DNA from: Phoronis australis
Lineage: Eukaryota; Animalia; Phoronida
NCBI GenBank assembly: GCA_002633005.1
Contig: NMRA01000063.1
Span: forward strand, 739,391-803,390
DNA length: 64,000 nt
Direction: 5' to 3'
The notes below the pieces were generated by a model. It worked only from the letters and a program-made list of their open reading frames with translations, did no database searches and was not told the DNA's origin. The position numbers and the translations under genes were made by a program. Within the stretch, counting starts at the first letter, position 1, and the number at the start of each line of letters is the position of its first letter. Shown piece by piece: positions 1 through 56,535 of the stretch.

Positions 1-498
1 GTCCACCCCTCTATCAACCAAACCATTCTAAGGATGATTTTGAAAATTGGCGTATATGTTCTCAGTGTGAAGAGGACAGTTGACGATGACTTTGACTACT
101 GTGGCACCTCCTAGTGGTGGTTTTGTTTTGTTTTGTTTTGCACCCATATCTGTATCTCCTAAACCCACTGCAGGGTCTTTATTAAATTTAGTAAGTGTAT
201 TTATAAGAAGCTAGCAATAGACAATGACTTACTGACGGACACTCTGCCCCCCCCCCAGAGGCAATTTCATTTTTTTCCGTTTTCCTTTGTTTCTCTGAAG
301 TTCTGTGTTAGATTTTTATGAATTTTTTATTTAGTATATAGCTTTCTATTGAAGAAGCGATGGCATGTTCCGTTTTCAGATGAATTGGACATTTTGCACC
401 ATCTAGTGGCCATTTTTATGTTTCAAATATACAACTCTTGAAGTACACTATTTGCGGTGCATTCGTGAGCGCATTTCAAGGCTCCGCGTTGCTCTTGT
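1..498 (-). repeat. Copy of complex interspersed repeat with ~145-bp subunits (5' end AACAAGAGCAACGCGGAGC), in a SIRT7 intron
   Basis: Reverse complement aligns by eye with 57466-57962 over its whole length; it runs off the window start. Confidence 0.85.
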
Positions 499-691
499 TT
501 AAATGGGTTTTAGATAACTTTTAATGTATTCTTAAGTGTTGACTGACTAATTACTGTTCTTTTGTTAATTTGTCATATGTTGTCGAAGCACATGTTGTGT
601 CATTATTATGTTTGATATCATCCTCATAACATAACATTCATTGTTGGTAAGAGTTCTTTTATTTTATTGTCCTCTGCCTAATCTTGAACAG

Positions 692-812
692 GTGCTAAAG
701 AAGTATCCGTGCTTGTGGAACATGGATAAACCGGTGAAAAAACGACCCAAGTTATTTATCATCAACCTTCAGTGGACACCTAAAGATGATGTGGCATTGC
801 TCAAAATAAATG
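692..812 (+). CDS. SIRT7: NAD-dependent deacylase sirtuin-7, internal coding exon (gene begins upstream of window)
   Basis: cag|GTG acceptor and G|gtacac donor; encodes VLKKYPCLWNMDKPVKKRPKLFIINLQWTPKDDVALLKING, which matches the SIRT7-specific VLKKYPxLW...PKLYIVNLQWTPKDD segment. Confidence 0.93.
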
Positions 813-813
813 G

Positions 814-1470
814 TACACCATTTATAATTTTCAACTTTGTTGCGTTGCTAGTCTCTTTGATTTATCAGGTTATGATTATGTTGAAGTTGGATAATGTTTT
901 AATTGTTACACCATTTATAATTTTCAACTTTGTTGTGTTGCTAGTCTCTTTGATTTATCAGGTTATGATTATGTTGAAGTTGGATAATGTTTTAATTGTT
1001 ACACCATTTATAATTTTCAACTTTGTTGCGTTGCTAGTCTCTTTGATTTATCAGGTTATGATTATGTTGAAGTTGGATAATGTTTTAATTGTTACACCAT
1101 TTATAATTTTCAACTTTGTTGTGTTGCTAGTCTCTTTGATTTATCAGGTTATGATTATGTTGAAGTTGGATAATGTTTTAATTGTTACACCATTTATAAT
1201 TTTCAACTTTGTTGCGTTGCTAGTCTCTTTGATTTATCAGGTTATGATTATGTTGAAGTTGGATAATGTTTTAATTGTTACACCATTTATAATTTTCAAC
1301 TTTGTTGTGTTGCTAGTCTCTTTGATTTATCAGGTTATGATTATGTTGAAGTTGGATAATGTTTTAATTGTTACACCATTTATAATTTTCAACTTTGTTG
1401 CGTTGCTAGTCTCTTTGATTTATCAGGTTATGATTATGTTGAAGTTGGATAATGTTTTAATTGTTACACC
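814..1470. repeat. 93-bp tandem repeat, 7 copies with strictly alternating variants (186-bp dimer)
   Basis: Unit tacaccatttataattttcaactttgttg(c/t)gttgctag...aattgt; the gcg/gtg variants alternate; starts at the SIRT7 splice donor. Confidence 0.95.
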
Positions 1471-1487
1471 TGAGAATTGACTGTTCT

Positions 1488-1875
1488 CAACTTGTCCCTA
1501 CAAGTTATGGTTAGAGCAAAGTGCACTAAAAGGAGAAAGTACTTTTTGGTGTCTCATCTCAACAAACTTGTCCCTACAAGTTATGGTTAGAGCAAAGTGC
1601 ACTAAAAGGAGAAAGTACTTTTTGGTGTCTCATTTCAACAAACTTGTCCCTACAAGTTATGGTTAGAGCAAAGTGCACTAAAAGGAGAAAGTACTTTTTG
1701 GTGTCTCATTTCAACAAACTTGTCCCTACAAGTTATGGTTAGAGCAAAGTGCACTAAAAGGAGAAAGTACTTTTTGGTGTCTCATTTCAACAAACTTGTC
1801 CCTACAAGTTATGGTTAGAGCAAAGTGCACTAAAAGGAGAAAGTACTTTTTGGTGTCTCATCTCAACAAACTTGT
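1488..1875. repeat. 76-bp tandem repeat, ~5 copies
   Basis: Unit aacttgtccctacaagttatggttagagcaaagtgcac...ctcatYtcaaca. Confidence 0.95.
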
Positions 1876-2325
1876 TCGCTATTTTTGTACTGTGATACAG
1901 AAACTTATGACTCTCACAATTTCAGATTTGTAAATTTTCATTTATGTAAGAAAATATATGTATTTAAAGTAAAAAATTTTAGTCTGTATGTCCAGTCCTA
2001 ATGTAGTCCATTTGCTCCTAAAGCCTTCATGCGTGGGTCAGTTTAGAAATAGTTGCAATGCATAGCCAATAAGAAACATCACCAGGGAATTCATTTCAAG
2101 AAAGGTGCGAGTCACATATCAAAATAAACCTTGGTAGATAAATTTGTGAAAAACTTCAGACCAAAACTAAATTAGCTATCTTGGCCTCTACTGTCATTTA
2201 GTTGAATGCTGATGTTATGTTGGGATAGAAAGGCTCCCTATTGGACACTCATCAAACTAAATTTGCCATTGAAGAACCCTCAATAGCAATGAAGTGAGGT
2301 GCTTGATTAATCTTTTTGTGTTTAG

Positions 2326-2392
2326 GAAAATGTGACCAAGTGCTGTATAAAGTGATGTGCAATTTAAACTTGGAAGCTCCTCCATACAACAA
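2326..2392 (+). CDS. SIRT7: Sirtuin-7, penultimate coding exon
   Basis: tttag|GA...AA|gtaagt; encodes (G)KCDQVLYKVMCNLNLEAPPYN(K), matching SIRT7 GKCDDVM...L.IP.Y; phases 1 and 2 fit both neighbours. Confidence 0.92.
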
Positions 2393-2429
2393 GTAAGTTA
2401 AATTACGTGCTTCAGGGGGTGGGCCCCTG

Positions 2430-2895
2430 TTATTTTGTCATAACTATGCCCAAGCGTGTGCACCTTCCAATTCTTGTCATGATGATGCCCTTGTAGTGTG
2501 CACCCTTCCATTCTTGTCATAACTATGCCCCAGTCGGGTGCACCTTTCAGTTGTTGTCATAATTATGCCTTGGTACTATGCACCCTTCCATTCTTGTCAT
2601 AACTATGCCCCGGTCGGGTGCACCGTTCAATTTTTGTCATAACTAGGCCCTGGTAGTATGCAATCACCCATTCTTGTCAACAGTATGCCCGGTTGCGTTT
2701 ACCTTTCAATTCTTGTCATAACAATGCCCTGGTGGCATGCAACTTGCCATTCTTGTTGTAAGTATGCCCCGGTTGCATTTACTTTCCAAGTCTTGTCATA
2801 ACTATGCCCTGGTGGTGTGCAACCCTCCATTTTTGTTATAACTATGCCCTCGTAGCTTACAATGTCCCATTCTTGTCATAACCGTGCCCTGGTAG
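2430..2895. repeat. Degenerate 40-bp minisatellite, ~11-12 copies
   Basis: ttcttgtcataactatgccc...gtgcacc recurs with a 40-bp period. Confidence 0.9.
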
Positions 2896-3491
2896 CGGTT
2901 GTTTGAGTTCAATGCTCCACTGAGTTGTTTATCCAGCAGCTTGTTTCCTTTTGTACTTTCAATGGTACTCTGTGTAACTTAAGGGAGCTAAAAATCTACT
3001 TTCGGTCAAAAACATACTTTTGATGTGGGCTACTTAAAATACTAAAACTTGTATCAGCTCATATTTTGTCTTGAATTAGAAATTATCTCTGGAATAACTA
3101 AATGTTTGATGGTGCTTGAGGTCAGGCTGAAAAAGATGGCTTGAACCTGCTGCTTGTTTTTTTTTTCTGAGTGTGGTTTCAAGCAAACAAATTATCTGTT
3201 TTTCCAAATCCTAGAAGAAAATTTTAATTTTAGTGAGGAAAATGTTAAAACCAGTTTTATTACAATGTTTGAGTGCAACGAAAAGTAGTTTTTCACAGAA
3301 GATGGATTTGTAGAACCTTTGAAATTGTAACAAGTCTACTTTGGTTATTAATGTTTTGGCATGTTATTTTACTAAGGGATGTTTTGCTTTATGTTTCACA
3401 GTGTTAAAGTGCAACAAATATGTCATTATCATGTTTCACAACACCTGTGCAGTTTTGGAAGTTTTTAAGTGAGCATATTTTGATTTTACAG

Positions 3492-4503
3492 ACATGAGGA
3501 TCCTTTATTTGTGTTTTCCTCTGCCTTGAAACAAGAAGAAGAGGACACGACTACAAAAGTGTCACTTGTGAAACCAGTTGTAAAGAGCAGCTGTGAAGAC
3601 ACACGTCAGATATCCATTCGCAGTCTGCTGGGAGTTAATCAAGATCAGGAGAAAATGAACTCGACCTCCAACAGTGTGCATTCAGGGGGAGGCATGAAAA
3701 CAAAGCACTTTAACCTCTGTGACCTCATCAATTTCGCAATCATCAAGACATTTAAAAGTGAAGTTGACAAAGAGAAGCCAAATACTTTGGGTAATGCATC
3801 AGAGAGCAAGAAGTCGGTGTTAGAAGCAATATCTCGGTGTGAAGCTGAGGAGGCTAGGTTGGACCAGACCAAGGTGAGTGTGAATAAAGGACTGTCGAGC
3901 AGGCCAATGACACAGTATGTGCGAAACACTACTAACAGTGAGGGGTGGAGAGACTTCTCAAACAGCTATCAACTTGCAGCCATGTCTAGTAGGCCTCACG
4001 CTCCTCATGTTTCATTAAGCAGCTTCACTAGTATGCCTGGTCACATAGCCATGACAAACTCGATGATGTACTCTGAACACCTGCGTCACATGCAACGACT
4101 TGGCTCCAATGTTCCAGAGAATACACAAAGTACTGCGCCCATGCAAGACGAACCACTCAACTTGTCATTTAAACCCCAGAAAATCATACATATAGATGAA
4201 CGGGAGAATCTTGGTTCGTTTAACATGAACAGTAACGGTGCTCTTGCAATGTCCAACCAACATAGCCAACCACTGAACAGTGACAAGGCCTCAAGTGTGC
4301 GGTCAGACAATAGGAATACTATGACAAGTATGTGGTCAAGCAATAGGATTATTAGCGAGTGCGGTACCACTAGTTCACCTCACTTGAGTAAAGAAACTAC
4401 TAGTAGTGAGCCAGTGGAAGGCAAACGCCCCAACTCCATTCCTGGTTGGTATGGAAAGGGGTTTAACCCAAAGAAACACAAAAGGAAAAAGTCATTCACT
4501 TGA
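3492..4503 (+). CDS. SIRT7: Sirtuin-7, last coding exon with a long low-complexity insertion
   Basis: ttttacag| acceptor in phase 2; begins (K)HEDPLFVFSSALKQEEE and ends PGWYGKGFNPKKHKRKKSFT*, the SIRT7 C-terminal GW(F/Y)G(R/K)G plus basic tail. Confidence 0.9.
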
Positions 4504-4972
4504 TATATAGGTGCGTAGCTAGGATATGGTGTTACACCATGGTTGAGCAGATCTGATGCACTGTGCACAACTCAAGGTTAATATGTCTGCAATTGTCATT
4601 GAAATTATCCCACGTAGTTATTTTTCACAGTTGCAATTTTCCATTTTAAGGGCTGATAACATTGTACATTGTTGAAGTTGAGTTTTGTTTTATGATATCA
4701 GTTCATGAAAGTATCAATCATGCTAACAGGCATGTAAGATGTTATTTGTCGACAAACTAACACAATTCCTCCATTCAACTTGATTGTCATTAAAATGCCA
4801 CTCTTGGGTATAATGCTTTTCTTTGCTTTCTAGGTTGACTTTGCATATTGTAAAGCAAATTTTCTGCAATGAACATTTAAAAACAAGATAATAAGTGGTT
4901 TATGGACATAGAAATAATTGATAGTTTGCTAATACTTGAGATCATGGTAGACGCATAGAATGAGTGACTGTC

Positions 4973-5362
4973 ACAAGCCAACTTGTTGAGTCTGCTGTTC
5001 AGCAGTAACAAGCCAACTTGTTGAGTCTGGTGTTTAGCAGTAACAAGCCAACTTGTTGAGTCTGCTGTTTAGCAGTAACAAGCCAACTTGTTAAGTATGG
5101 TGTTTAGCAGTAACAAGCCAACTTGTTGAGTCTGCTGTTCAGCAGTAACAAGCCAACTTGTTGAGTCTGCTGTTTAGCAGTAACAAGCCAACTTGTTGAG
5201 TCTGCTGTTTAGCAGTAACAAGCCAACTTGTTGAGTCTGCTGTTTAGCAGTAACAAGCCAACTTGTTGAGTCTGGTGTTTAGCAGTAACAAGCCAACATG
5301 TTGAGCCTGCTGTTTAGCAGTAACAAGCCAACTTGTTGAGTCTGGTGTTTAGCAGTAACAAC
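4973..5362. repeat. 35-bp tandem repeat, ~11 copies, in the probable SIRT7 3' UTR
   Basis: Unit acaagccaacttgttgagtctgctgtttagcagta. Confidence 0.95.
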
Positions 5363-5644
5363 AAGTCCAGTCATTCTAAACCTACCAATGATCTAAAATT
5401 TTAATAACAAACATATATAGACCAATTTCAAGTAAGGTAAATAATTTAATTTGATAGTTAATTCTTTTGACGGAAGGTCACTTTATATCACTATAAATTT
5501 CGAACTCCAAGGTGTGCTTAATCTATCACGGCACCTTGAAACCATCAAGTTAACTGGAAATTAATATATATATACTCCTTATTTTAACAGGGATGCAAGG
5601 AACTGTGATTTGGTAAAAGAACTGGAACAAATGATATAATTAAG

Positions 5645-5906
5645 CATGCGCGCACCCAGCCTAGAAAGTGAGGGGCGCGAATTATTGGGAATGTGGACCT
5701 TTTTGCTAAAAAATGAAAAAATTAAAAAATCAGGTTCCGTTCACAACTGTGAATTGTGCATTCGCGAAATTTAGGTAGTTCCTGCCTTTTCAGTGGACTT
5801 TTGTCTCGTTTTCTACTTTTTTCAGAGTTTTTGTTTCTCCAAGGTGCACCTTTTTGCCCACTTCATCAAATAGAGGGGGTGGGGCTTGCCGCTGGGTGAG
5901 CGCATG
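5645..5906. mobile_element. Non-autonomous TIR element (hAT-like MITE) with 6-bp TSD
   Basis: TIR CATGCGCGCACCCAGC ... GCTGGGTGAGCGCATG; ATTAAG on both flanks; related inverted copy at 32930-33186. Confidence 0.8.
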
Positions 5907-6894
5907 ATTAAGTAGTCCGACATTTGGCATTGCTGTATTTTAAAGTACAATTTTCTCATTACCACTCGACTGTAACTTTTTAACACAGCATACTACATAG
6001 GATTATGTACAACATACTATAAGGATTATATCATCTTGTTTGGCTGGGCAAAAACAAAATGTTGACTTGTTAGCAGAATCACTTTGAGATTTGTAACGTT
6101 GTAACAATAATACCCTCTTGAATTATTACTGAATTAGTCAACTCAAACCACAGCTTATTTACATGCGCTATTGTGCAATTTGCAATTTTATGTTTGGCCA
6201 ACACTAATGAATTCTAAAGTGTATTCTTGAGTTGCTGATGATTATGATATTCTTGTTGATAACAGAAATAGTAAGGAATATTATGAGAATGCCATGGTTT
6301 TATGAGAGTTAAAGGCTCATTCCATGTTTGTTTTGTAGGCAGTTGAACAGGGTGAAGTACAGTGTTAAGTGTTTTGACAAAATCAAATCTTTGACTTTTC
6401 GGGAGACAATCTTACAGCCTTAAATTAATTGATTGATGTAAAAGTGCATATGAATTATTATTTATGAGAAGGATGTGATTACCATGGTTATCCAGTGTTG
6501 TGTGAATATTTCAATGTCATGGCAAGCACTACTGTTATTACTTGTTTGTATTTGATTTTGAAGTATTTTAGGCTTAAAAATTGCTTTTACTTACCATAAG
6601 TTTCTTCTGATTAGCTCTGTTAGTTGCTAGGCAACAGGATGGAATCCTGGTGCCATTCCCCATTTGAATAAACTATTTTATATAACCTGTCCAAAACCTT
6701 TCTCTTTTAGTGTGCCTAACCATGGTAATGTTTAGCAGAATCTAAAGGGCAATGCTATTTGAACATCATCTACGCTAAGCAAAGTGCAGTTGTATTCATT
6801 GACATTTTGCAAATGTGAAAAGAAAAAATTCTGCAAATAGGTGACCTTTGCGCTAATGACGCACGCACACCCACCCACCCACCCACCCACCCAC

Positions 6895-7404
6895 NNNNNN
6901 NNNNNNNNNNNNNNNNNNNNNNNNNNNNNNNNNNNNNNNNNNNNNNNNNNNNNNNNNNNNNNNNNNNNNNNNNNNNNNNNNNNNNNNNNNNNNNNNNNNN
7001 NNNNNNNNNNNNNNNNNNNNNNNNNNNNNNNNNNNNNNNNNNNNNNNNNNNNNNNNNNNNNNNNNNNNNNNNNNNNNNNNNNNNNNNNNNNNNNNNNNNN
7101 NNNNNNNNNNNNNNNNNNNNNNNNNNNNNNNNNNNNNNNNNNNNNNNNNNNNNNNNNNNNNNNNNNNNNNNNNNNNNNNNNNNNNNNNNNNNNNNNNNNN
7201 NNNNNNNNNNNNNNNNNNNNNNNNNNNNNNNNNNNNNNNNNNNNNNNNNNNNNNNNNNNNNNNNNNNNNNNNNNNNNNNNNNNNNNNNNNNNNNNNNNNN
7301 NNNNNNNNNNNNNNNNNNNNNNNNNNNNNNNNNNNNNNNNNNNNNNNNNNNNNNNNNNNNNNNNNNNNNNNNNNNNNNNNNNNNNNNNNNNNNNNNNNNN
7401 NNNN
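6895..7404. other. Assembly gap (N run) preceded by a (CCCA)n microsatellite
   Basis: 510 N. Confidence 0.99.
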
Positions 7405-7526
7405 CCGGCAACTGGACGCAGAGTACGTCTACATATTCGGAAAAACGGCACACGGTTTCTTCACGATTTCCATTACCCACCGGCGGCTATTAGAAACCCC
7501 GGCACCAAAAAAAAAAAACAAAAAAC

Positions 7527-7989
7527 TTTTGAATCAATTTAGATCGAGTATTTCCACTCGATAACAGCAAGTTCAGTTGTTTTACCTGACTATGACGTAA
7601 TCGGTTCGAACGCAGTTTGTTCAGCCGTTCACAACACGCTTACTGGTGGCAACTTATCGCTTGAATGCATCGTTTTCCACCAATAAATCATCAAATTTCG
7701 AAGTACAACCCTTACAAATACGTCGAGTTCTTGAAAAAACCTGTTGTTTTATTTCATTGTTACGGATTTATAGGTATTCGAAGGTACGGTAGCCTACAGA
7801 GTTCGGTCAAGGTGTGTATACTCCTAGGTTTGGTTAGCCAATTTATCATGGTAGATCGCTGGAGTTTGGGTCTGTTTGGTGATAAATTCGAATCATTCTT
7901 CCGTGAAATACAGACATGAAAGATTGCTGTGTGTTGTACTTTTGGACTTGCGATTTTTTCAGTTCTAAACACAAAACGCTTGTTATCCA
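7527..7989 (+). repeat. Left arm of a diverged ~460-bp inverted repeat (partner 22015-22477)
   Basis: Collinear reverse-complement blocks such as tcaatttagatcgagta..ctcgataac, cttatcgcttgaat, caataaatcatcaaa, tgttttatttcaYtgttacggattta, gtagcctaca, gataaattcgaat, gaaatacagaca and aaacgcttgttatcca. Confidence 0.85.
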
Positions 7990-8706
7990 ATTGCTCACTT
8001 CACGCTGGTACTTTGCTCCAGTTCCACGATATGGCGATAAAGATAAGGCATTTCCTGAAATATTTTCCTCTGATTTATTACCTAAATGGGTACTGTTGCT
8101 GAAGTTTGAGGTACACTCGCTATGAGTCATCGTTAACTTCAGTAGCGGAGTGTTGGCTGCGGGAGATGCGACGTACCTCACACACTTATGATTACGCATT
8201 AAATACCATTCGTCATATGCAACGAACAGGTAAAATTTGGGCAATAAAAAATCAAGTTTGTATAAAAAGAATCAAAATGGGAATCAAAAACAACCAAACA
8301 AAGTAGCAACGCGTTTACGCTCACATTGATGTCGATACGTTTTCAAGGACATTACCGTCATTCAGGAACTCAGGTCACGAAAATAGACGGGAATAGTCGA
8401 TGAATTTTTGATCTCGGCCGAGGTATAAAAGGTAGCAAAAAAGGCTTTTAGTTTGATAACAGAAAGGATGTGAACATTATGGCATGTTGCATATTACTTA
8501 ATTTGGTATGTATTTTTAAGTTTTTGAACTAGATTGCCCTTTGATAAAATGACTTCAAGTCACTTTTCATGAGACACACACACACCAGACCTCACATTAT
8601 CAGTGTGGTCATATGCCAATGAGCTAAAATGCAAACTTAATCCAAGTTCGGAACTAAGTGAACTAAGAATTACAATGTCAACAATATATTAAGATTCATG
8701 ACGTTC

Positions 8707-11700
8707 CTAATTTGGGGAAATACAAGAGAACGAGTTCTGGGACTTGATCCGCTTAGGTGATAAATTAGGGTGTTCATATTTTGATTCAAATGAAGCGGTG
8801 CTGCTTTTGGGTGTAACAATTCTCCTTTGTGGCTGAATTAGGCTTCTGCTGGTCCCAGCAGAACACACTGTGCTTGCGCTTTTACTGCGTCTCGTCATGG
8901 TTTCGCCCTTATTCTGTTTGTGGACTGTTTCCTTCAAAAACAGTTTTTGTAATGACGACATCTCTTTAGGGTCCCGTTTAGGAGCGCTTTCGACATATGC
9001 TTTACAAAATCGTTGAAAATACGATTTCGATAACTTGCTGTTCAACTCCGTATGTACACCACTTGCTGTAATGGGTTGCATCCCTACCTTATTTTTATAT
9101 CTAGGAAATTTGAAAAGTGTACACGCCTTCTTCCATCTTTCTTTTGGACATCGCGACTCTGCAGGTGCTTCACAATTCCTTTCATTAATAGTTTTCAAAC
9201 AATCGTTTGCACACTTGATGAACCTTCTGTCAATATTCACGACTCCAAACCTTTCAGCTCCTAAACGGGGCTCGCATTTTTCAAGAGCTTCTTTTAAATC
9301 ACTTTCACGGCGAGATACAATTGCTTTCGTCAACTCATCTTTGATTGACTTCACTGCATCTGAGGTATCTTTATTACTTTCGTCAATCACTTGCTCTGCT
9401 CTAGCGATGATTTCCGTGTCCATGACGATCATGTTACGAAGACAATACATTCTGTAATTCAGGAGAGCTAGCCTGGAGGTGCATTCCTCCCCAACGTCTA
9501 TAGCAATTCGTAACTTTGTTTTTAGCTCCGCAGCTTCTCGTTTAGCTCTTGAAGCTCGTTCATTGGCTTGACTCAGAGTCTCCAAAGAAGTTTCAGCAGC
9601 AATGACGTACTTCCTGTCGATAGGAATATTTCCTACGAGATTCTTTGAATATTCTTCGTAACTACTTATAGCTTGTTTAATTTCGCTTTCATTACGCGAC
9701 ATGATTGCCTTAATAAATCCGTTCTTTATGATCTCCACAGTGGTCGACACCCCGCTATTCCATTTTCTAATTTCTCGTTCTGCACGTGTTACGATAACGT
9801 GGTCTAGCAGCACATCTTGTTCTTGACACAGAGTTACATATCTTGCCAAAGCGAGATGAACCGAAAATTCATCTTTAGACTTGATTGCAGCAAGCAACTC
9901 TTGCCTTTGAAGATGTGTCTCCTTCGAAGATTTCAAGGAGCTTTTTCCAGCGTTCCTCAGCGCTTGTTTTGCAGCGTTTACAAATTTCTTATCAATAAAA
10001 AATCTGTTTTTGTCTTTCGAAAGCTTTTCATATTTTTCCAATGCGGTGGCAATAAAATCAGCATTCTGAGATAAAATGGCCTGCAGTAATTGACTTTTCA
10101 TTGATTCTTCCTCAACAGAGTAAGTTGCGCTCCACTCACTAATGTGTTTCTCTGCCACTGCAACGGTAGCTCGGTCAACAACAACGTCATGCTTGTGCCG
10201 CTCACTGTAGTCTATGTATCTGAGCAGGTTTAGTCTGACGCCAAACTCGTCCTTTGACCGAATTGCTTTCATTAGCTCTTGGTTAAGTTCGCCAGCTTCT
10301 CGCACGTGTCTGTCAGACGCTTTCTTAACCCTCTTAAGTGCACTATTTGCGCCTTTAGCGAATTTTTTATCGATAGAAAACTGAGCGTGGTGCTCCTTTT
10401 TTAGTTCTTCATACTTCCCTAGACACTTGTACAGATTTGTTTCGTTTTGGGACACGATTGAAGCAGTCATTTCGTCCTTAATACGCTTCTCTGCTTCACT
10501 ACTCTTTTTGTTGTGGAAACTTATTTCTTGTTCTGCCATCGTAATCAACGCTTTATCCATAGGAATGGTTGAATGGTTATATCCAAATGTAGTGTAGTGC
10601 AGAAGTAACACTCTCACACGGTATTCGTCATTTGCTTCGACTGCTTTCTGTAATTTAATCTTGAGTTCCTTTGCTTCATTGAGAATGTCCGTAACATTCA
10701 CCAGTTCAATCTTGCTACGTACACTACACCTCTCGTGAAATTTATCAAAGGCAATTTTTCCCTTGCATTCAACAAATATTACTACGACAATTCCTGTAAC
10801 TACAAAAATTACACTTACAGGCAAGAGAATTAACTCAATAAGACCTAAAAACGTTAGTTCATAAGTCAGTGAAAATGTTTCCATGAGGTTGTTATCCGTT
10901 CCGTAAGCTGATGCAAAAGCCATCGCTTGGACAATGCAAGTGACATTTTGTGGGCGTATTTGGTTTTCACTAAAGTAGATTATCAAAGAACTTCTGCTAT
11001 TTTCGAACTTAACACCGTCACGTGCTTTTGTAATATTATTCCTTACACAATCAGCAATCGTAGAATCTTTACACCATGTAACGTGTGTGTATTCCAAGGG
11101 GTCAGATTCCGTGAAGCAGTGCAATGCAACGCGTTCACTGTTTTTTCCGATAGTGATTTCTCCTCCCGGCTGTGTTCCGTTCCTCCATCTAAAGGGAGTC
11201 ACAACCACAAGATAACCAGCAGATGTGAACAATAGTCCTTGGTTGTCATAAAGAGCACACTGAACCAAAGTTATGTTCTCGCTTCTTTGTACTTGAGACA
11301 GAATTAGCTTTTTATCAATCAATTTCGCAGTCTTTAGCGTTGACGCTTCCATATTATTCACAGACCACCTCCGAGTCATGCAGTGGGCTGACTTACTACT
11401 AGCCGAGCATTCAAATGTTACGTTGCTTCCCTCAGTAACAACCGTGTCCTTAGGACGTGCGTTGTCGTCGAGTACAAGGGGATGAAGTACACTTACGGAC
11501 ATGACAGCTCTACCAACGACCCTGCCTGAGACGGGGTCGACTCCCGTGCAAGTATAGCTGCCCTCGTGGCGTCTTTCAGTCATAAACACTTCAAACGTAG
11601 AGCCGCGACTTTTACCTAATTTCCCGTTGGTCGCCGGAAACGTGAACGGGACAGTCCAGTTGACTACAGGCAATGGTCTACCAACAAATATGCAGATTAG

Positions 11701-12486
11701 CTTGAAGTTTGAGCCGACTGGGACCTGTTCGAGATTGTTTGAAGAGTACACTAGACGCTGTGACTCGGACATTGGACTCCAAACTTTACGTTTTGTAATA
11801 GAATAGCTGTCTAAAAGCTCCGTGCGCTGCGCACGCAAGTTCTCCACTTCACAGGCGAGTGCAATATTTCCGTTAAACTCGTCAATATCTTCATCAACAA
11901 TGTATACGTATATTAGAGTACCGTTATCAGGTCGAACACGACGACGAACATCTTCGTCAAATGGCTTTAATTTAGTTCGAGAGTCTTTGGTAACCCACCA
12001 CCATCTGTATGCAGGCGGTGGGAAAGACTCTAAAATCGGTGTACACGGAATTTCGAGTGACTGGTTCACCGCACCCACAACAGACCCTCTGTATTGAGCT
12101 GAATCACTTCTTATCTCCTCCATGAAATAAACATCTACTTTAGCAAACGAAGATGCGTCTTTACCAAACACATTGGAGGCAGAACATTGGTAGAAAACAC
12201 TGTGCTCATTTGTTATATTCATGAGCTCAAGGATATTACTTGAGTGTTCCATCCTGATTGTTTTGCTATTTGTAGGATAAGACTTACTGAATTTCTTGGT
12301 CCATTCATACGTAATGTTACCAGATCCTTCCGCGCAACATTCGAGTTGCACGTCTGCGCCATAGACTACACCTTTTGACTTGGGGTGCCTCGTTATTTTG
12401 GGTGGGTAATTGAATTTTGCTTTCGCGAAAATGGGCAAGGTCAGTAACGTCGTGACAAATACCACAGTCACGTGAAAGATAAACAT
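8707..12486 (-). CDS. Single-ORF type I membrane protein (1259 aa): signal peptide, 5 neuroglian/L1-like Ig domains, TM helix, cytoplasmic 8 x ~62-aa helical repeats, basic Ser-rich tail
   Basis: Uninterrupted ORF; ATG at 12486 followed by a hydrophobic leader (MFIFHVTVVFVTTLLTLPIFAKA); Ig C..W..C motifs (LECCAEG..YEW..YQCSASN; IPC..YRW..LACEV; LICIFVGRPLPVVNW..YTC; FECSAS..W..VQC; LHCF..DP..VTW..VTC); TM at about 10851-10771. Confidence 0.88.
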   Translation of the reverse strand: MFIFHVTVVFVTTLLTLPIFAKAKFNYPPKITRHPKSKGVVYGADVQLECCAEGSGNITYEWTKKFSKSYPTNSKTIRMEHSSNILELMNITNEHSVFYQCSASNVFGKDASSFAKVDVYFMEEIRSDSAQYRGSVVGAVNQSLEIPCTPILESFPPPAYRWWWVTKDSRTKLKPFDEDVRRRVRPDNGTLIYVYIVDEDIDEFNGNIALACEVENLRAQRTELLDSYSITKRKVWSPMSESQRLVYSSNNLEQVPVGSNFKLICIFVGRPLPVVNWTVPFTFPATNGKLGKSRGSTFEVFMTERRHEGSYTCTGVDPVSGRVVGRAVMSVSVLHPLVLDDNARPKDTVVTEGSNVTFECSASSKSAHCMTRRWSVNNMEASTLKTAKLIDKKLILSQVQRSENITLVQCALYDNQGLLFTSAGYLVVVTPFRWRNGTQPGGEITIGKNSERVALHCFTESDPLEYTHVTWCKDSTIADCVRNNITKARDGVKFENSRSSLIIYFSENQIRPQNVTCIVQAMAFASAYGTDNNLMETFSLTYELTFLGLIELILLPVSVIFVVTGIVVVIFVECKGKIAFDKFHERCSVRSKIELVNVTDILNEAKELKIKLQKAVEANDEYRVRVLLLHYTTFGYNHSTIPMDKALITMAEQEISFHNKKSSEAEKRIKDEMTASIVSQNETNLYKCLGKYEELKKEHHAQFSIDKKFAKGANSALKRVKKASDRHVREAGELNQELMKAIRSKDEFGVRLNLLRYIDYSERHKHDVVVDRATVAVAEKHISEWSATYSVEEESMKSQLLQAILSQNADFIATALEKYEKLSKDKNRFFIDKKFVNAAKQALRNAGKSSLKSSKETHLQRQELLAAIKSKDEFSVHLALARYVTLCQEQDVLLDHVIVTRAEREIRKWNSGVSTTVEIIKNGFIKAIMSRNESEIKQAISSYEEYSKNLVGNIPIDRKYVIAAETSLETLSQANERASRAKREAAELKTKLRIAIDVGEECTSRLALLNYRMYCLRNMIVMDTEIIARAEQVIDESNKDTSDAVKSIKDELTKAIVSRRESDLKEALEKCEPRLGAERFGVVNIDRRFIKCANDCLKTINERNCEAPAESRCPKERWKKACTLFKFPRYKNKVGMQPITASGVHTELNSKLSKSYFQRFCKAYVESAPKRDPKEMSSLQKLFLKETVHKQNKGETMTRRSKSASTVCSAGTSRSLIQPQRRIVTPKSSTASFESKYEHPNLSPKRIKSQNSFSCISPN

Positions 12487-12830
12487 GCCCAACTCTACGC
12501 CACGCACGTGGAGCAAAGAACGTAACTTGTTGTCTTGAGACACGAGACGACAGCCAAAAGACAACACTACTTACGCGAATAAATCTTTATTTCACCATAG
12601 GCCTACATTATAGACAACAGATTCACAACTCCGACATTTTCTTGAGTCCTATCCTAAAAGAGTAGCCACTCTCCAAAATTACCAATTTCAGTTTCTGATA
12701 AATGTATTGTGACGGGAAATTCTAGCATCTATTTTATTGTACAGTGCAACGAAAAAAAAAAATAATTTCGGCATTGAAACGCTGTTCAAAGTCTTCCAAT
12801 ACTAGAACTGTTGATATCGTGAGTACTTAT

Positions 12831-12972
12831 CAGGGGCGGATCCAGGGGCCAGGGCAAAGTATTAGCCAGGATTTTGCCCGTCAGACATTCACATTCCCGA
12901 ACTGCCAAATGGAATCTGGGAGAATTTCAGGTACGGCCATGGGCCCCTTGGCCCCCTCTAAATCCTAAACTG
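12831..12972. mobile_element. Short hAT-like MITE with 5-bp TSD, upstream of the Ig gene
   Basis: CAGGGGCGGATCCAG ... degenerate CTAAATCCTAAACTG; CTTAT on both flanks. Confidence 0.65.
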
Positions 12973-13266: not shown

Positions 13267-16019
13267 CTCCTCCTCACTTATGTTAACCGTTGAACAACTA
13301 ACAAACTAATGTTTAACTAACTCCTGCCATGGCCCTGAGTTTTTCGAATGTTTCTCTTGGCAATGGCTTGGTCAACATGCCTGCTGTCATTAGTGCACTA
13401 CAACAATACTTTAAGTCAATAGAACCAGTGCTGACCAAATCACGGATAAAGTGATGTTTGATTTCAATATGTTTGGCACGACCATGAAATTTTGGATTGT
13501 GACATATGGATATGGCTGCCTGGTTATCCTCAAAAAAAGTCATCGGTTTTTGAATTCCATTCAACTCGAGCACAAATTTGGAAAGCCACAATGGCTTCCT
13601 GCGCAGCCATCCCCAAGCCAACATGCTCCGCTTCAGCTGATGACAGAGCAACACATGATGACGTTTACTTCTCAAGCTGACAATTGATCCAGCCACATAA
13701 AATGTATATCCAGATGTCGATCTACGTACGACATCTTCTCCCCAGTCGGAGTCGGAATATCCAACAGAGTCCGAGAACTCGCTACTTTATCGCAATCCGA
13801 AATTAACCGTTCCATTCAAGTATCGCATTATCCGCTTAACAACAGACCAGTGCTGTTCGGTCGGTTTCTAGCAGAACTGAGAAACACTTCTCACTGCAAA
13901 TGCTATACCTGGCCTTGTCCACTGACTCAGATATAGCAAACTTCCAACAGCAGATCGACTGATATAATTCCTGATCAAAAGTAGCAACATCATTTGGTTC
14001 AGGTTTTAAACCCATTTCCATAGGGGTACTGACTGGCTTACACTCGCTCACACCAAATTCCAGGACTTTGGTCGTGTAACCTGGTTGTGACTAACTAAGC
14101 AATCACAACCCCCAAGAAGTATTTCAATTCACCCATGTCAGTTACTTTGAATTTTGCCTTTATTGCTCGCTTAATCTCTGACAGTTCTTCATCATCAGTT
14201 GCAGCAATAATTATGTCATCGACATAAACTGCTATCATAGCAGTACCACCATCCAACACAAAAATGCATGGATCGTTATCTGAACGTTTAAAACCAATGT
14301 TGTGCAAATGCTCATCCAAAACAATGTTCCAACAACGAGGTGACTGTTTCAACCCATAAATACTCTCGTTGAGCTTACAGACAAGGTTTATCTTGCCTTT
14401 CTCAACAAATCCCTCGGGTTGTCTCATATACACCTCCTCATGTAACACACCATTTAGAAATGCAGTGTTCACATCCATCTGATGAAGCATCATATTTTGT
14501 TTTAATGCAAGAGCAATCAGTGCTCGCACAGACTTCGGTCTCTACCGAATCATCAGGAGTTTCATTCTCTTCCGACTGCTTGTCATCCGCTTGTTCCACA
14601 TCGATGCATTTCTCACTACCAATCTCGGACCGGACAGTACCTTTGGCCTTTTATACTCCTTCTCAAGTCCGAATATGTACTCGTCAAACACAACATCACG
14701 AGTAAGAATGACTCGATCACGACTTATATCATACACACGATATGCCTTACTATCAGGTGCATAACCCAGAAAGATGGTCTTTCTAGATTTTGAATCAAAC
14801 TTAAGAACGTTCGTCCTTAGGGACATGTGCATATGCTCTGCAGCCAAAACACGTAGAGTATCAACACTCGGTTTCTCGCCCATCAAGGCCTCAAATGGAG
14901 TTTGACCATTTAGCGCCCTCGTAGGACTTCGGTTTCGCAAATTGGTAGCAGTGGAGATTACCTCTGCCCAAAATTTCTGGGGCAAAAGCGATTCAGCAAG
15001 CATTGAGCGTGCAGTTTCGACAAGGGTGCGATTCATTCTTTCGGCAACTCCGTTTTGGTCTGGTGTCTTCGGAACAGTTACTTGGTGTCTGATTCCTTCT
15101 CGTCTGAGGTACTGTTCAAACTGCTTTGAAATGTACTCTCCTCCATTGTCAGCTCTGAGACTTTTGAGTTTCTGACCAGTAAGATTCTCAGCCATATAGC
15201 CTTCCATTCTAAAAAGGTATTGAATACCTGATCCTTACGCTTGATGATGTACACCCAAGCATACCGGGAATAATCATCGACAAATGTCAGAAAGTATTCA
15301 CAGCCACTGAGGGAAGCTGTGCTCATTTTACCGCAAACATCAGTGTTCACAAGTCGCAGAGGGAAATTGCTACGATGGGCCTTACCTTCTGGAAAGCTGG
15401 CTCTGTGCAGCTTACCTTGAACACAAGGCTCACAAACTCCCAGTTCACAATCCGACTTACAGTCAAGCCCAATTGTAATCTTACTGCGTATCAATTGTTT
15501 AAACTTTGGCCACCTAAATGTCCAAAACGAAGATGCCACAACTCAAACTGTGAGTTAGTCTCTGCTACTGACACAGACTCAGTCATGGGCCTTACATTTA
15601 AGTAATACAGGCCATTGACTTTACGGCCTTTTGCAACTTCTTTACCAACATCATTCACAATGTTACACTCAGTATCAGTAAATTCTATGGTGCCTAGCTT
15701 GTGAAAAGCTTAACAAACTGAATGACAGGCCTGGTACAAACAGAACATTTTCTTACACACATTTTGTGCTATTCCCGTTCAGGGAATCAAGTTCAAGTTC
15801 AACCGCTCCTTGGCCGGTTCCTTTTAAAACACGTCCATCCCCAAGCGTACGTCTCTACTGTCCTGCAGCTCCGTAAACTCGGTATATTTTGCTTTGTCAT
15901 TGCACATGTATGTTGATGTTCCCGAGTCCATGATCCATTCACGAGTAGACCTAGCACCAGTAAGCATTGCATTTATCAGCAAGCCAATAGACACCTCACT
16001 CTCACTGTCCTTAGTCGCT

Positions 16020-16545
16020 TCAAAACTCGAGAAATTCAATGTAAGAAGGGACAAAGCACTTGCTACCATAGTTCTCTCAGTGGACACTAGTTTGTTGTAC
16101 ATACCAGGAGACCCCGTGGATCCCTGTGACGTGTGGCAGAAATTTCAGAACCAGTTTCAAAAGAAAACTTGGGCAAATAAGCTGCATTTACGTAAGAAAC
16201 TATATTCAATGAAGTTAAATGCATGTGATGACGTCAGTGCTCATATCAAATCCATGACTGACCTTTTTAACGAACTTGCAGTAATTGGTGATCCAGTAAA
16301 CGATGAAGATCGTGTTGTGCATCTTCTTGCAAGTCTTCCCAATATGTATGATGTGTTGGTTACAGCAATGGAGGCTTGCGAGGAGGTGCCTGGGATGGAA
16401 CTAGTGACTGAGCGTTTATTACACGAGGAGCGGAAACTTAGCGAACAGTCAGCCGGGGAAGCGCTTGTCGCTCGCGAAAAGACTAGGTCAAACAAGGGTC
16501 CTAAGTGTTATGGATGTAAATGGTGTGGTCACATAAAACGTTTTG
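16020..16545 (+). pseudogene. Copia gag fragment in opposite orientation to its pol
   Basis: RRDKALATIVLSVD..FQKKTWANKLHLRKKLYSMKL..LLASLP..ERLLHEE..CYGCKWCGHIK (zinc knuckle truncated). Confidence 0.9.
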
Positions 16546-19260
16546 ATTAGCTCAATAACTTTCATCAGAGTCGGGTCAGCTCATGTGGTCAGTTCGATGT
16601 CCTCAATCGAAATAGCTTTGGGTTTTGTGTGTTGCAAAATACAGTTGACATATTCTTCCGTAATCTTGCTTTCGCGCGAAGCCTGTTTGTTACCAGCAAT
16701 TGGGTGTCGTGACATAAAATCGGGCCGGGTTGGAGACACCCGGTTTATATTTAATTGTGAACTTTTATGGTTGTAGCCGTAATCCCCAACGTTCGATTCT
16801 GAGCGGTGGTCATTCCTTTTTCCAACTCGTTTCCAGAGGTTTATGATCCGTAATAACCTCAAAGTGATGAGCGCCTCGCAAATACATATCAAAATGTTCG
16901 CATGCCCATACAATCGCTAGTGCCTCCCGTTCCGTTTGACTATAACGGGTTTCTGTTTCGGTGAGCGATCTGCTCGCATAAGTGACAACTTTGTTGTTTT
17001 GGCATAATATAGCGGAAATTCCCACTGGACTTCCATCAACAATTACTTCAATATTCTCATTCGGCTTAGAATATGCCATGACTGGGCGGTCAATCAGTTT
17101 CTGTTTCAGTGTCTTAAACGCGGTTTCATGTTCATTCGCCCATTGCTAAACAGCATCCTTCTTGGTTAGCCTACGCAGTGGTTCACTGATCGTAGCATAG
17201 TTATCATGAAATCTCGCGCAATATGTTGTCATGCCGAGAAAACTGCGCACACTACTTACATTTGATGGTGCTTTGGTGTCAACAATGGCTTTGACCTTTT
17301 TTGGATCTGGTGAGATTCCACCTCTACTGAAGACAAGTACGAAAAAATCGATAGACGACTTGTTATACTCACATTTCTTGGCATTCAGTGTCAGCCCATT
17401 GTCTTGCAATGCTTGGAACACATCGTAGTCTTCCTGCGTCTTCCCAAACACAATTATGTCATCGGCTATATTTTTCACACCGGGAATTCCTTTAATCACA
17501 TTTTTGATCGTTTCTTGAAATATTTCAGATACGGAACAAACACGAAATTTAGACGCCGATAACGGAAAAGACAAGCATGCGTACTAAACGTTGTGATATA
17601 GCGAGAACTTTCATCCAACTCGAGTTGGTGATAACCGGAACGTAGGTCCAATTTACTAAAAATTGAGGACCCATTCAAATCCGAAATTAACTCATCAACA
17701 GTGGGCATGTGGTGGCGTTCGCGTTCAATTGCCGTATTCGGCCCACGCATATCGACGCATAATCTGATGTCATCCGAGTCCTTCTTAGGAGGGGTCACAA
17801 TAGGTGAAATCCAAGGCGTCGGAGTGCCAACCTCTACCTTTTCAATGATGCCTTCTTTCAACAACTTGTTGAGCTCTTTTTCGACATTCTCCCTCAAGTG
17901 AAACGGTGTACACCGATGTCGAATCGCGATCGGCTTGACGTAAGGGTTAATGTGGAGTTTCACGTTTGAGTTTTTCAACTTTCCTACCACACTGAATAGT
18001 TCTGGAAATCGGTCCTCAACACTTTTTATATTTCTCGCGACTTGGACAAGATTCAGCTTAACGCAGGTCGGGTAACCCAGCAACGAACCGTGATTGCGCT
18101 TGACTACCAGAAACTCGCAACAGGCATAAATCTGTTTTGTTTCTATGGTGACCTGACACCGTCCGATGACCGGCAATGGGTTGTTATTGCCATATGGTAA
18201 CAGTTTCTCCAGACGACGTTTGCTTAATTTGGGTGAGCCAATTTTAGCATACGTCACCTCGTCAAGGATGTTTATTGACGCACCAGTGTCAATTGTTCTG
18301 TCGCATGGTCTATCATTTAACTTCACGGAAACATGTGGAATCCGAGTCGATTTCTGCTGACTCACACCATAACAATATTCTTCATCGCTCGACTCAGGTT
18401 GTTGACAGTTATCTGAGTGTGATTTAACGCCCTTTTTGTCGTTTTTAATCTCCCTTACTTTATGAGTTGTTACCGGTCTCGTTTGCCTCACACGGCAGAA
18501 TTTTGCAAAATGTCCAACATTTTGACACTTATGGCAAATTTTATCTTTGGCAGGACATGGTCCTGAGTGTGGATAACTTCTTCCACAGCTGAAACATGAC
18601 TTGTTTGCCAAGTTTGGTTTAACATACCCTCGCTGTCTCGGCGTTTGTACGTGGACGACTACTTTTATCTCTCATCCTTTCACACAATGAGTGTCTCTCT
18701 CAATAGCTGCCGCTTGACTATCCGCAATTTCAACAGCGACCAAGTGCCAATATCTCTGCTAGAGGTTTGTCTGCCTCTCTCAGCGCTCTGCGGTGTAATT
18801 GATTGGATGAACAGTTCTGGATCACCTGAGACAGGATCTCTTGATTCGCGTTTACAAAATTATAGTTGGCAGCCAACTGTCTCAATTCAGTGACAAACTC
18901 ATCTAACGACTGTCCGGGTTGTTGTCTATACGTCCGAAACTGATAGATGTCCATCTGAACATTTTTCTTAGGCTCAAAATAAGACAAAATACCTGTTCAG
19001 TGCCCTCATAGTCCTGCGTTGAGTCCCCCTTGTTGGCCTCATATATGTCGTACGTTTTGTCGCCAACGTAATGCAACAGCAGAGCCCGCTTCCTGGCCCC
19101 GTTGTCCTCCGTGTCGGCGAGTACCATGCCGACGAACAAGTTTTCTAACTTTCCGATCCACTGTCGGAACTTCGGGCCAGCGCTAGTGCTGTCCTCACAG
19201 TCAAATTGTGGAAAAACCGGCAAACCTCCTGCCTGCATTGTCCACGCTCAATGAGTTCAA

Positions 19261-33878: not shown

Positions 33879-34157
33879 GTAGGTCCCACTCACATGGTAC
33901 CGTCGAATTATCTTCACCTGGTAGGAAGTCTTGATCCTATAGGAATTCCTATTCGATCCTATGGATCATTTTCGTTAGAGTACTCTTCATGCAAAAAGCA
34001 TGGCATTATCTCGTAGGCCAACAAAAGCACAAGGCCAAGCGACCATCTCTGACTTTTATAATTGGGCCTTATTTCTTCTGCTCCCTGATTTTCTCTTAAA
34101 TTGTTTTTGCCTAGAAATTTTAGAGCTGTATCGTGAAATATCGACTTCTACAACAGC

Positions 34158-50067: not shown

Positions 50068-50068
50068 N

Positions 50069-50206
50069 TCTGATTTTCCTTCTTTCATACCCCATCATCT
50101 TGAACAAGTGGCCATGTCTGATTTTCCTTCTTTCATACCCCATCATCTTGAACAAGTGGCCATGTCTGATTTGTCTTCTTTCATACCCCATCATCATGAA
50201 CAAGTG
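50069..50206. repeat. 48-bp tandem repeat, ~3 copies
   Basis: tctgattttccttctttcataccccatcatcttgaacaagtggccatg. Confidence 0.9.
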
Positions 50207-55740: not shown

Positions 55741-56374
55741 TTAGGTATAATCCTGAACTCATGCAAGACGTTCTTAACTTTCATGTCTTTCTGCTTCCGT
55801 TTCTTCTTCTGCTTTCTCTTCTTTTTCTTGGCCATTTGGACACCATCAATTTCAGAATCAGTAGCTTCTTTCTCCTCAAACTTCACCTTTTTTACAGCAG
55901 CAGCAACAGATGTACTTTCACTAGAATCAACACTTAATTTCCTTTTCCTCTTCAACAAACCTGGGTTTTCTTTACGAATTGTTTCACCGTCATTAGTTTG
56001 AATGTTCTTTCCACCATCACCAACATCAGACACGTCAGTAGAAACAGATACAGACTCATTGGAATCAGCATGTGTTTTACTTTTCTTTTTCAACAAACTA
56101 TGAGGTGCTTCATAACTGGTGTCACTGTCGTTTGTAGATGCAGCAGTTTTAAATTTCTTTCCACCTTCACAGGTATCAACAGTGGCTTCTATTTGTTTAC
56201 GTTTCTTACCCTTTTTGGACGATTTGGCTGCAGTTGCACTAGACTTTTGGTTTAGTTCTAAAGCTGAATTTTCACCTTTGTCCAGAGTTTGGCCTTCTGG
56301 GGGTTTTGATATCTTGGCAGATTGTTCTGAACTTATGTCTTTGTCAGTGGAAGCCAGCATCGTCAGATCTTTTT
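55741..56374 (-). CDS. LARP7: LARP7 coding exon (long Lys/Ser/acidic linker with NLS-like clusters)
   Basis: ttttag|AA...AA|gtaaga; 634 bp, phases 1 and 2 fit; ends KKKKRKQKKKRK..FRIIP(K), preceding the conserved W..LKKEY exon. Confidence 0.85.
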
Positions 56375-56535
56375 CTAAAAGGTAAAAATATTCAAAATTA
56401 TTTAACAGAAACACTGATCTTCACTGTATGATACAAAATACTACAAATGAACCTGTGTTCCAATGACAAACTTATGCCCGAGAACATCAACTTAGAAGCG
56501 CCTGTCAAAAATCACACCAATCAATTGTAACAACT

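What the first reader, a model, noticed from the sequence alone, without database searches (positions are those of the whole stretch)
8707..12486. Candidate new receptor class: neuroglian-derived Ig ectodomain fused to a large unrelated cytoplasmic solenoid
Seen: signal peptide, five Ig domains, one TM helix and ~680 cytoplasmic residues. Established: Ig1-4 carry L1/neuroglian-like signatures (Ig2 IPC..P.P...W..NGTL; Ig3 CIF.G.P.P.V.W; Ig4 P.D..V.EG.NVTFEC..VQC..GLL...YL.V) and the fifth resembles Ig6 (C...DP.....W.KD). True L1-family proteins have six Ig and FN3 domains plus a short FIGQY tail, and these are absent here; insect hemolin is a precedent for an immune protein derived from Ig1-4. 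Inference: a chimeric, fast-evolving adhesion, immune or allorecognition-type receptor with a new signalling module. Function is not visible in the sequence.
Basis: partly seen in the sequence, partly recalled or inferred. Interest (0 to 1): 0.82.

Follow-up and report, generated by a model that had tools for sequence, protein, structure and literature searches.

The report
Adhesion receptor with eight-bead inner rod
An expressed animal gene with an unbroken coding frame encodes a predicted cell-surface protein with five antibody-like domains outside the cell and, inside, eight copies of a predicted three-helix unit that matched nothing in the databases searched, so it likely works as an adhesion receptor carrying its own built-in tether to the cell's skeleton.

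Summary
The gene is real: one 1,259-codon frame (minus strand, 8707-12486), covered end to end by strand-specific RNA reads with no splice joints in 2 of 3 raw-read runs and nearly silent in the third. Predicted layout: signal peptide, five Ig domains (Ig2 and Ig5 divergent), one membrane helix, 686 cytoplasmic residues. New here: the cytoplasmic part is four A+B pairs, i.e. eight old ~63-residue three-helix units, then a basic Ser-rich tail. The model reads better as a chain of three-helix beads than as a solenoid, but its overall geometry is unreliable (pTM 0.35). No relative of the repeats was found among 1.84 billion representative proteins, in Pfam, the PDB or by fold. The ectodomain belongs to the L1/contactin/Robo/DCC class; 'neuroglian-derived' is plausible but not resolved, and it fails L1, Robo and contactin membership. 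Only two variant sites were seen, which argues against allorecognition. Best reading (0.45): a tissue- or stage-restricted adhesion receptor whose rod replaces the ankyrin-spectrin link. The scan had not noted this protein elsewhere; it noted other membrane proteins with helical rods in this genome (untested link). New variant of a known kind; interest 0.5.

The parts
8707..12486 (-). Single uninterrupted coding frame, 1,259 aa (P0001)
   Evidence: RNA reads cover it with no joints
12421..12486 (-). Predicted signal peptide, residues 1-22
   Evidence: hydropathy
12127..12411 (-). Ig1 (I-set), residues 26-120, Cys50/Cys101
   Evidence: best Pfam Ig_3 stretch 28-105
11782..12126 (-). Ig2, divergent, residues 121-235, Cys148/Cys212
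   Evidence: no hit alone; aligns in register with neurofascin and Robo2 Ig2 in context
11488..11769 (-). Ig3, residues 240-333, Cys265/Cys313
   Evidence: Pfam ig best stretch 254-321
11194..11475 (-). Ig4, residues 338-431, Cys360/Cys410 (extra Cys369), with W-x-x-N and Q-C as in neurofascin Ig4
   Evidence: Pfam Ig_3 E 1.7e-5 alone; alignment
10852..11193 (-). Ig5, divergent, residues 432-545, Cys457/Cys517 (extra Cys472, Cys480)
   Evidence: Pfam Ig_3 E 0.015 alone; DCC E 0.001 for Ig4+5
10768..10833 (-). Predicted transmembrane helix, residues about 552-573, followed by Cys and Lys residues
   Evidence: hydropathy peak 3.06
10291..10668 (-). Cytoplasmic di-repeat 1 (A+B three-helix units), residues 607-732
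9913..10290 (-). Cytoplasmic di-repeat 2, residues 733-858
9535..9912 (-). Cytoplasmic di-repeat 3, residues 859-984
9175..9534 (-). Cytoplasmic di-repeat 4, residues 985-1104
8710..9174 (-). Basic, Ser/Lys-rich C-terminal tail, residues 1105-1259 (31 K+R against 11 D+E); no family match; one S-P-K-R site
8926..8926 (+). Variant site T/G in RNA, synonymous (Thr1187)
   Evidence: 8 of 30 reads in X5, 20 of 37 in X6
12419..12419 (+). Variant site G/A in RNA, Ala23Val, beside the predicted signal cleavage site
   Evidence: 8 of 19 reads in X5, 3 of 16 in X6

Best explanation
The gene is transcribed and encodes a predicted single-pass surface protein that likely acts as a cell-adhesion receptor, with five Ig domains that would bind a partner on a neighbouring cell or matrix and a cytoplasmic chain of eight predicted three-helix units that would serve as a built-in spacer and scaffold tying the contact to the cytoskeleton. 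Shown: the frame, its transcription in 2 of 3 raw-read runs, the Ig-class ectodomain, the 4x(A+B) repeat and its age. Predicted: topology and the three-helix fold of each unit. Inferred: (1) the ectodomain is a shortened copy of an L1/contactin-class cell-adhesion molecule that lost its FN3 stalk; (2) the rod (roughly 20 nm if eight bundles lie end to end; my estimate) takes the place of the ankyrin-spectrin link that L1 proteins recruit through a short tail motif, which is absent here; (3) the basic Ser-rich tail grips an acidic surface (microtubule, actin or membrane lipid) under phosphorylation control; (4) the lack of coding introns in a genome with spliced neighbours points to an old retroposition.
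For: Ectodomain hits are adhesion and guidance IgCAMs (after titin): neurofascin, Robo, contactins, DCC. Contactin-2 aligns collinearly over query 46-430, and neurofascin Ig1-2 and Ig3-4 align in register. The cytoplasm has no enzyme, TIR or death-domain match in Pfam at E up to 10, no ITAM/ITIM pattern and no FIGQY, PPxY, NPxY or TRAF pattern, so a structural or scaffold role is what remains. Repeat: first half against second half scores 252 versus shuffle mean 40, maximum 97 of 1,000; same-type units are 25-41% identical, A against B 14-26%. Codon positions 1/2/3 are 51/57/30% identical against 29/29/26% expected, and 24 of 75 fourfold sites agree: silent sites are near saturation while the frame and core residues are kept. 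The AlphaFold2 model (mean pLDDT 71.5) gives three helices per unit, with some connecting helices fused; the low-rmsd fold matches cover single bundles of about 60-80 residues. Low allelic variation fits a constrained role.
Against: No binding, localisation or partner is shown. No orthologue was found, so conservation across species is untested. The rod geometry is not determined (pTM 0.35, single-sequence model). The ectodomain model failed (pLDDT 34.8), so the horseshoe is untested. The tail shows no recognisable cytoskeleton-binding domain. The codon-position test uses a protein-level alignment, which itself favours positions 1 and 2. On/off expression between samples fits an induced immune gene just as well.
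Confidence: 0.45

Rival explanations
1. A hemolin-like immune or pattern-recognition receptor: Ig1-4 binds microbial surfaces and the eight helical units are docking sites for signalling adaptors.
For: Expression differs sharply between samples: 10-50x in X5 and X6 against 0-1.2x in X7. Hemolin (pathogen-binding IgSF member) and oyster CgIgIT2 (five Ig, TM, ITAM) are precedents (PMC11999971, passages). Each of 7 of the 8 units keeps a Tyr at the same position.
Against: No ITAM, ITIM, TRAF or RHIM pattern. No close paralogue: 0 of 706 and 0 of 562 laid reads were under 90% alike at an 85% floor. The conserved Tyr sits in an amphipathic helix and may be structural. What the samples are is not known.
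Confidence: 0.22
2. A Robo- or DCC-derived guidance or co-receptor: the five Ig domains are Robo's five, the FN3 block was deleted, and the tail was replaced.
For: Robo has five Ig domains followed by three FNIII (PMC10084454, passage). Robo2 gives the best single collinear stretch shown for Ig1-4, 33.9 bits. Against fish Robo3, Ig2 scores best on Robo Ig2 (z 5.2) and Ig3 has its top z on Robo Ig3 (10.2, near-tied with Ig5 at 9.9).
Against: Ig1 and Ig4 show no preference for their Robo counterparts and Ig5 matches none (z at most 1.9). Ig4 carries W-x-x-N and Q-C as neurofascin does. No Robo cytoplasmic motif of the two recalled patterns tested.
Confidence: 0.12
3. A specialised cell-type protein (gamete, cilium, gland or larval attachment) in which the rod sets a fixed spacing between the membrane and an internal structure and the Ig part is a species-specific recognition surface.
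For: No relative among 1.84 billion representatives; single exon of coding sequence; on/off between samples.
Against: No tissue information; low allelic variation is not typical of fast-evolving gamete recognition proteins (recalled), though few samples were seen.
Confidence: 0.13
4. An allorecognition determinant of the Hydractinia Alr type.
For: Ig-type ectodomain with a single membrane helix; Alr proteins bind homophilically in trans (PMC8282982, passages).
Against: Alr2 has 183 distinct protein sequences in one population, whereas here two RNA samples show the same two variant sites, none inside an Ig domain, and three contigs of a second DNA sample (3,886 bases in all) show no difference. 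Caveat: the samples may be related or inbred, contigs drop variants, and I had no genome-wide diversity control.
Confidence: 0.05

Closest known systems
L1 family (L1CAM, neurofascin, neuroglian, SAX-7; non-canonical LAD-2)
   Same: Type I layout; Ig1-2 and Ig3-4 align in register with neurofascin, including N-G-x-L in Ig2 and W-x-x-N plus Q-C in Ig4. LAD-2 shows that an L1 ectodomain can carry a wholly divergent tail (PMC2213605, passages).
   Different: Five Ig, no FN3, no ankyrin-binding motif, 686-residue folded repeat tail against 40 residues in LAD-2; in-register scores are weak (12.2 and 9.8 bits) and lower than an out-of-register match to neurofascin Ig5-6 (about 21 bits).
Contactins
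   Same: Collinear match over four Ig domains (contactin-2, query 46-430, E 3.8e-9).
   Different: Contactins have six Ig, FN3 domains and a GPI anchor (recalled); this protein has a membrane helix and a long cytoplasmic part.
Robo
   Same: Five Ig domains; collinear Ig1 to start of Ig4 at about 24% identity.
   Different: No three-FNIII block; folded repeat tail instead of CC motifs; Ig5 does not match.
Kirrel/Neph
   Same: Five extracellular Ig domains and one membrane helix (PMC10084454, passage); one Kirrel-like Atlas cluster at 0.87, lead only.
   Different: Kirrel tails have no folded domain and end in a PDZ-binding motif; this tail is predicted folded and ends in Pro-Asn.
KY/hillarin-type three-helix repeats of invertebrates, and TM-rod-MTBD proteins noted in this genome (AI notes e1-8842478, e1-10581402)
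   Same: Three-helix units of similar size (about 58 aa in the notes, about 63 here), arranged in higher-order patterns, in membrane or cytoskeletal linker proteins.
   Different: Homology not tested (no sequences in hand); no hit to such proteins; this protein has no dynein-like microtubule-binding domain match at its end.
MIT domain and spectrin-type three-helix bundles
   Same: Single units superpose on MIT domains of calpain-7, katanin p60, USP8, LIP5, ULK3 at Z 7.2-7.9, rmsd 2.2-3.3 A over 64-68 residues.
   Different: These Z values are below the level (about 13) that the tool gives as meaningful for helical bundles, and designed bundles score the same; no sequence match.

Membership tests
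L1/neuroglian | Six Ig domains followed by FN3 repeats (count recalled; FNIII repeats seen in passages of PMC2213605) | tested here: not met
   Five Cys pairs then the membrane helix at 552; no FN3 hit
L1/neuroglian | Ankyrin-binding FIGQY-type motif in a short tail | tested here: not met
   No match to F[ILV]GxY in residues 574-1259
L1/neuroglian | Ig1-4 closest to L1-family Ig1-4 in register | tested here: inconclusive
   In-register alignments exist but Robo, contactin and DCC score as well or better; no invertebrate neuroglian sequence was in hand
L1/contactin/DCC horseshoe receptors | Ig1-4 horseshoe fold | tested here: inconclusive
   Model failed, pLDDT 34.8. W-x-x-N and Q-C in Ig4 are present; that they mark horseshoes is recalled, the paper was not held
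Contactin | GPI anchor, no cytoplasmic domain (recalled) | tested here: not met
   Internal membrane helix followed by 686 residues, all transcribed without a joint
Robo | Five Ig domains | tested here: met
Robo | Three FNIII domains after the Ig block | tested here: not met
   definition from PMC10084454 passage
Robo | Domain-by-domain correspondence with Robo Ig1-5 | tested here: inconclusive
   Diagonal best for Ig2 and marginally Ig3 only, one Robo tested
Kirrel/Neph | Unfolded tail ending in a PDZ-binding motif | tested here: not met
   Eight predicted folded units; C-terminus is Pro-Asn
ITAM/ITIM immune receptors (e.g. CgIgIT2) | ITAM or ITIM in the tail | tested here: not met
   No pattern match
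Allorecognition receptors (Alr1/Alr2) | Extreme allelic polymorphism of the ectodomain | tested here: inconclusive
   Two variant sites, none in an Ig domain, but only two RNA samples and one further DNA sample, relatedness unknown
TPR/HEAT/ARM alpha-solenoids | Stacked helical hairpins forming a continuous superhelix | tested here: inconclusive
   Period is 63/126 aa with three helices; TPR_Slam 31.3 bits is under its 35.2 cut-off; TPR chains align either as one bundle or with rmsd above 13 A; model geometry unreliable
KY/hillarin three-helix repeat | Profile-level homology of the repeat unit | not testable with these tools
   No such sequence was returned by any search
Dynein-type MTBD membrane tethers noted in this genome | C-terminal MTBD-like domain | tested here: inconclusive
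   No Pfam family at E up to 10 and no dynein chain in the PDB search for the tail; the tail was not folded

The most novel reading that the evidence does not exclude
This lineage has built adhesion receptors that carry their own cytoskeletal linker: an L1-type ectodomain fused to a chain of three-helix beads taken from the KY/hillarin linker toolkit, doing in one polypeptide what L1, ankyrin and spectrin do as three. The protein would be one member of an undescribed group of Ig-receptor/rod chimeras in this genome, and its A+B unit an undescribed repeat family.
Probability: 0.25. Interest if true: 0.75.

Novelty: new variant of a known kind. Interest (0 to 1): 0.5.

Why it matters
L1, contactin, Robo and Kirrel-type IgCAMs signal or anchor through short motifs in unfolded tails (partly PMC10084454 passages, partly recalled). 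An IgCAM whose tail is a 500-residue folded repeat with no relative found is an unusual architecture and a candidate new repeat family. If the rod is a direct cytoskeletal tether it shows a way of replacing the ankyrin-spectrin adaptor layer by domain fusion, testable in cultured cells. Its weight is limited by being one gene in one unnamed species with no function shown.

Tried and rejected
No whole genome is held, so paralogues could be sought only in the window (none) and through reads (none above 85% identity). Endodomain searches, all blank: word-indexed search of residues 590-1115 (7,996 candidates scored, 0 at E 0.001); full phmmer of 1.84 billion representatives (0); profile of the four di-repeats against longer proteins (7,991 scored, 0 at E 1, weak test); ESM Atlas (no usable hit); PDB by profile (best E 0.18 and 0.38); Foldseek PDB and viral (0 at E 0.001); metagenome contigs (55 pattern matches, 0 confirmed; the 8-unit alignment was too variable to scan). 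These blanks do not prove absence. Ectodomain search gave only 4 generic Ig proteins of 7,435 candidates, 23-26% identity. The exact protein is not in the 15-billion collection. Single-sequence ectodomain model unusable; it was not searched. MIT-domain and TPR readings rejected as below threshold. No RNA holder was listed by the run index; expression rests on laid raw reads. Run X8 laid 0 contigs, no evidence either way. No LTR, terminal inverted repeat or target-site duplication frames the gene at the settings used, and no genomic poly(A) follows it. No complex prediction was run, as the ectodomain does not fold without an alignment. Literature searches for this architecture found no paper (with 0 results; with 3 unrelated or general papers); the library lacks most subscription journals.
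Full report
Observation. The minus strand holds one frame from 12486 to 8707 encoding 1,259 residues, by far the longest in the window. Hydropathy shows two hydrophobic stretches, residues 1-22 and about 552-573, which gives a predicted type I membrane protein with 686 cytoplasmic residues. Of 12 N-x-S/T sites, 8 lie before the membrane helix. Five cysteine pairs have Ig spacing. Pfam recognises Ig1, Ig3 and Ig4 clearly, Ig5 weakly (E 0.015 alone) and Ig2 not at all on its own. No FN3 domain is found.

It is a real, expressed gene. Raw RNA reads of two runs labelled as the same species cover the frame continuously, at mean depths per bin of about 7-51 (X5) and 9-50 (X6) from under a fifth of each run, almost all in one orientation, with no splice joint, insertion or deletion (706 and 562 reads laid). 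In usual stranded libraries that orientation means the minus strand is the RNA; the library chemistry is listed as unspecified. A third run, X7, has 0-1.2x over the frame while it covers the flanking repeats, so expression appears restricted by tissue, stage or treatment; what the samples are is not known. Coverage fades near 8670 and near the start codon, so the 5' end is not defined. The gene is a roughly 4-kb low-copy island between high-copy repeats (contig depth in X4 about 4-8 inside, about 80 to 9,600 in the flanking bins), with broken copia- and gypsy-type retroelements starting about 0.8 kb upstream. Neighbouring host genes appear as short exon-sized frames: a sirtuin-7 exon at about 635-817 (E 1.7e-14) and an RRM exon at 62.4-62.7 kb. 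An intron-free 3.8-kb frame in such a genome suggests an old retroposition (inference; no parent, poly(A) remnant or target duplication was found).

Ectodomain. After titin, the best solved relatives are neurofascin, Robo, contactins and DCC. Contactin-2 aligns collinearly over residues 46-430; Robo2 gives a single 33.9-bit stretch over Ig1 to the start of Ig4; neurofascin Ig1-2 and Ig3-4 align in register, sharing N-G-x-L in Ig2 and W-x-x-N and Q-C in Ig4, but at only 12.2 and 9.8 bits, below an out-of-register match to its Ig5-6. Against one fish Robo3 the domain-by-domain matrix is only partly diagonal and Ig5 matches nothing. The search of 5.8 billion clusters returned 4 generic Ig proteins of 7,435 candidates, at 23-26% identity, and the Atlas gave only sub-0.9 Ig leads. 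So the ectodomain is of the L1/contactin/Robo/DCC class; the motifs lean to L1/contactin, but the parent is not resolved. It is not a member of any of these families by architecture (definitions from passages of PMC10084454, and PMC2213605, plus recall). The horseshoe could not be tested because the model failed.

Endodomain. Residues 607-1104 are eight tandem units of 56-65 residues in strict A-B alternation, with autocorrelation peaks at 126 and 251. The two halves align at score 252 against a shuffle mean of 40 and a maximum of 97 in 1,000 shuffles; A units are 26-41% identical to one another, B units 25-40%, and A to B 14-26%. All eight keep an Asp and an Ala, and 7 of 8 a Tyr. At DNA level there is no significant similarity between units, and third codon positions are near background while first and second are about twice background, so the duplications are old and the protein sequence has been kept; the test is biased by aligning on protein. 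AlphaFold2 without an alignment gives mean pLDDT 71.5 and three helices per unit, three of the seven inter-unit junctions being fused into one long helix, but pTM is 0.35. In the wide fold search the low-rmsd matches cover one bundle of about 60-80 residues (MIT domains, designed bundles, ribosomal proteins; Z up to 8.3), under the level that is meaningful for helical bundles, and longer alignments have rmsd of about 7-38 A. I read this as a chain of three-helix beads rather than a TPR-like solenoid, with moderate confidence. No relative was found by sequence, profile or fold. The last 155 residues are basic and Ser-rich and match nothing. Common signalling motifs are absent.

Variation. Two sites vary in the RNA, the same two in both samples: one silent, one Ala23Val beside the signal cleavage site; none lies in an Ig domain. 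Three contigs of a second DNA sample differ at no base over 3,886. No read below 90% identity was laid at an 85% floor, so no close expressed paralogue is seen. This is the opposite of the Alr2 pattern of 183 protein variants in one population (PMC8282982, passages), but the samples are few, may be related, and I had no background control.

Mechanism. With an adhesion-class ectodomain, no catalytic or adaptor domain and a long regular helical array, the most likely role is an adhesion receptor whose rod spaces and anchors the contact to the cytoskeleton, the basic tail being the likely grip (0.45). This step is inference. It gains context, not proof, from unreviewed notes of this scan: the same genome is said to hold Ig/TSP1 receptors ending in a dynein-like microtubule-binding domain and a membrane protein with a helical-repeat rod ending in the same domain, and octopus KY/hillarin proteins are said to carry long arrays of about 58-residue three-helix modules in higher-order patterns. 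I could not compare sequences, and this protein shows no such terminal domain. Rivals are an immune receptor of hemolin type (0.22; precedents in passages of PMC11999971), a specialised spacer or recognition protein (0.13), a Robo-derived receptor (0.12) and an allorecognition gene (0.05).

Novelty. The scan holds no note on similar sequence. Paper searches for this architecture gave nothing relevant; for papers I saw only search listings and the passages cited, no supplements, and most subscription journals are outside the library. Verdict: a real, expressed, orphan chimera of a known ectodomain class and an undescribed cytoplasmic repeat; new variant of a known kind; interest 0.5, up to 0.75 if the built-in tether or a wider family is shown.

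Noticed in passing
window 635-817 (+) and 3484-4503 (+): A sirtuin-7 exon (E 1.7e-14 to human SIRT7) runs into a 93-bp tandem repeat; the 339-codon frame at 3484-4503 has no Pfam match and may be a long lineage-specific last exon of the same gene.
   Followed up: partly
window 13313-16550: Broken copia-type element whose gag frame (15828-16550) lies on the + strand while its integrase and RT pieces lie on the - strand, suggesting an internal inversion.
   Followed up: no
window 16581-19247 (-): Frameshifted gypsy-type element (zinc knuckle, protease, RT, RNase H) next to the copia remnant.
   Followed up: no
window 55737-56420 and 62392-62667 (-): RRM exon (E 1.8e-12) and a Lys-rich exon that look like parts of a LARP7-type gene (name recalled, not tested).
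   Followed up: no
window 29385-34016 (+): Several exon-like frames with weak leucine-rich-repeat hits (E 0.07-0.11); possibly a spliced LRR gene.
   Followed up: no
window 47830-50071 and 58905-60099: Very homogeneous minisatellites: 44.8 copies of 50 bp at 99% and 31.3 copies of 38 bp at 95%.
   Followed up: no
window 12600-12930 and 7500-8660: High-copy interspersed repeats flank the gene on both sides and are abundant in RNA on both strands; the upstream one may supply or border the promoter.
   Followed up: no
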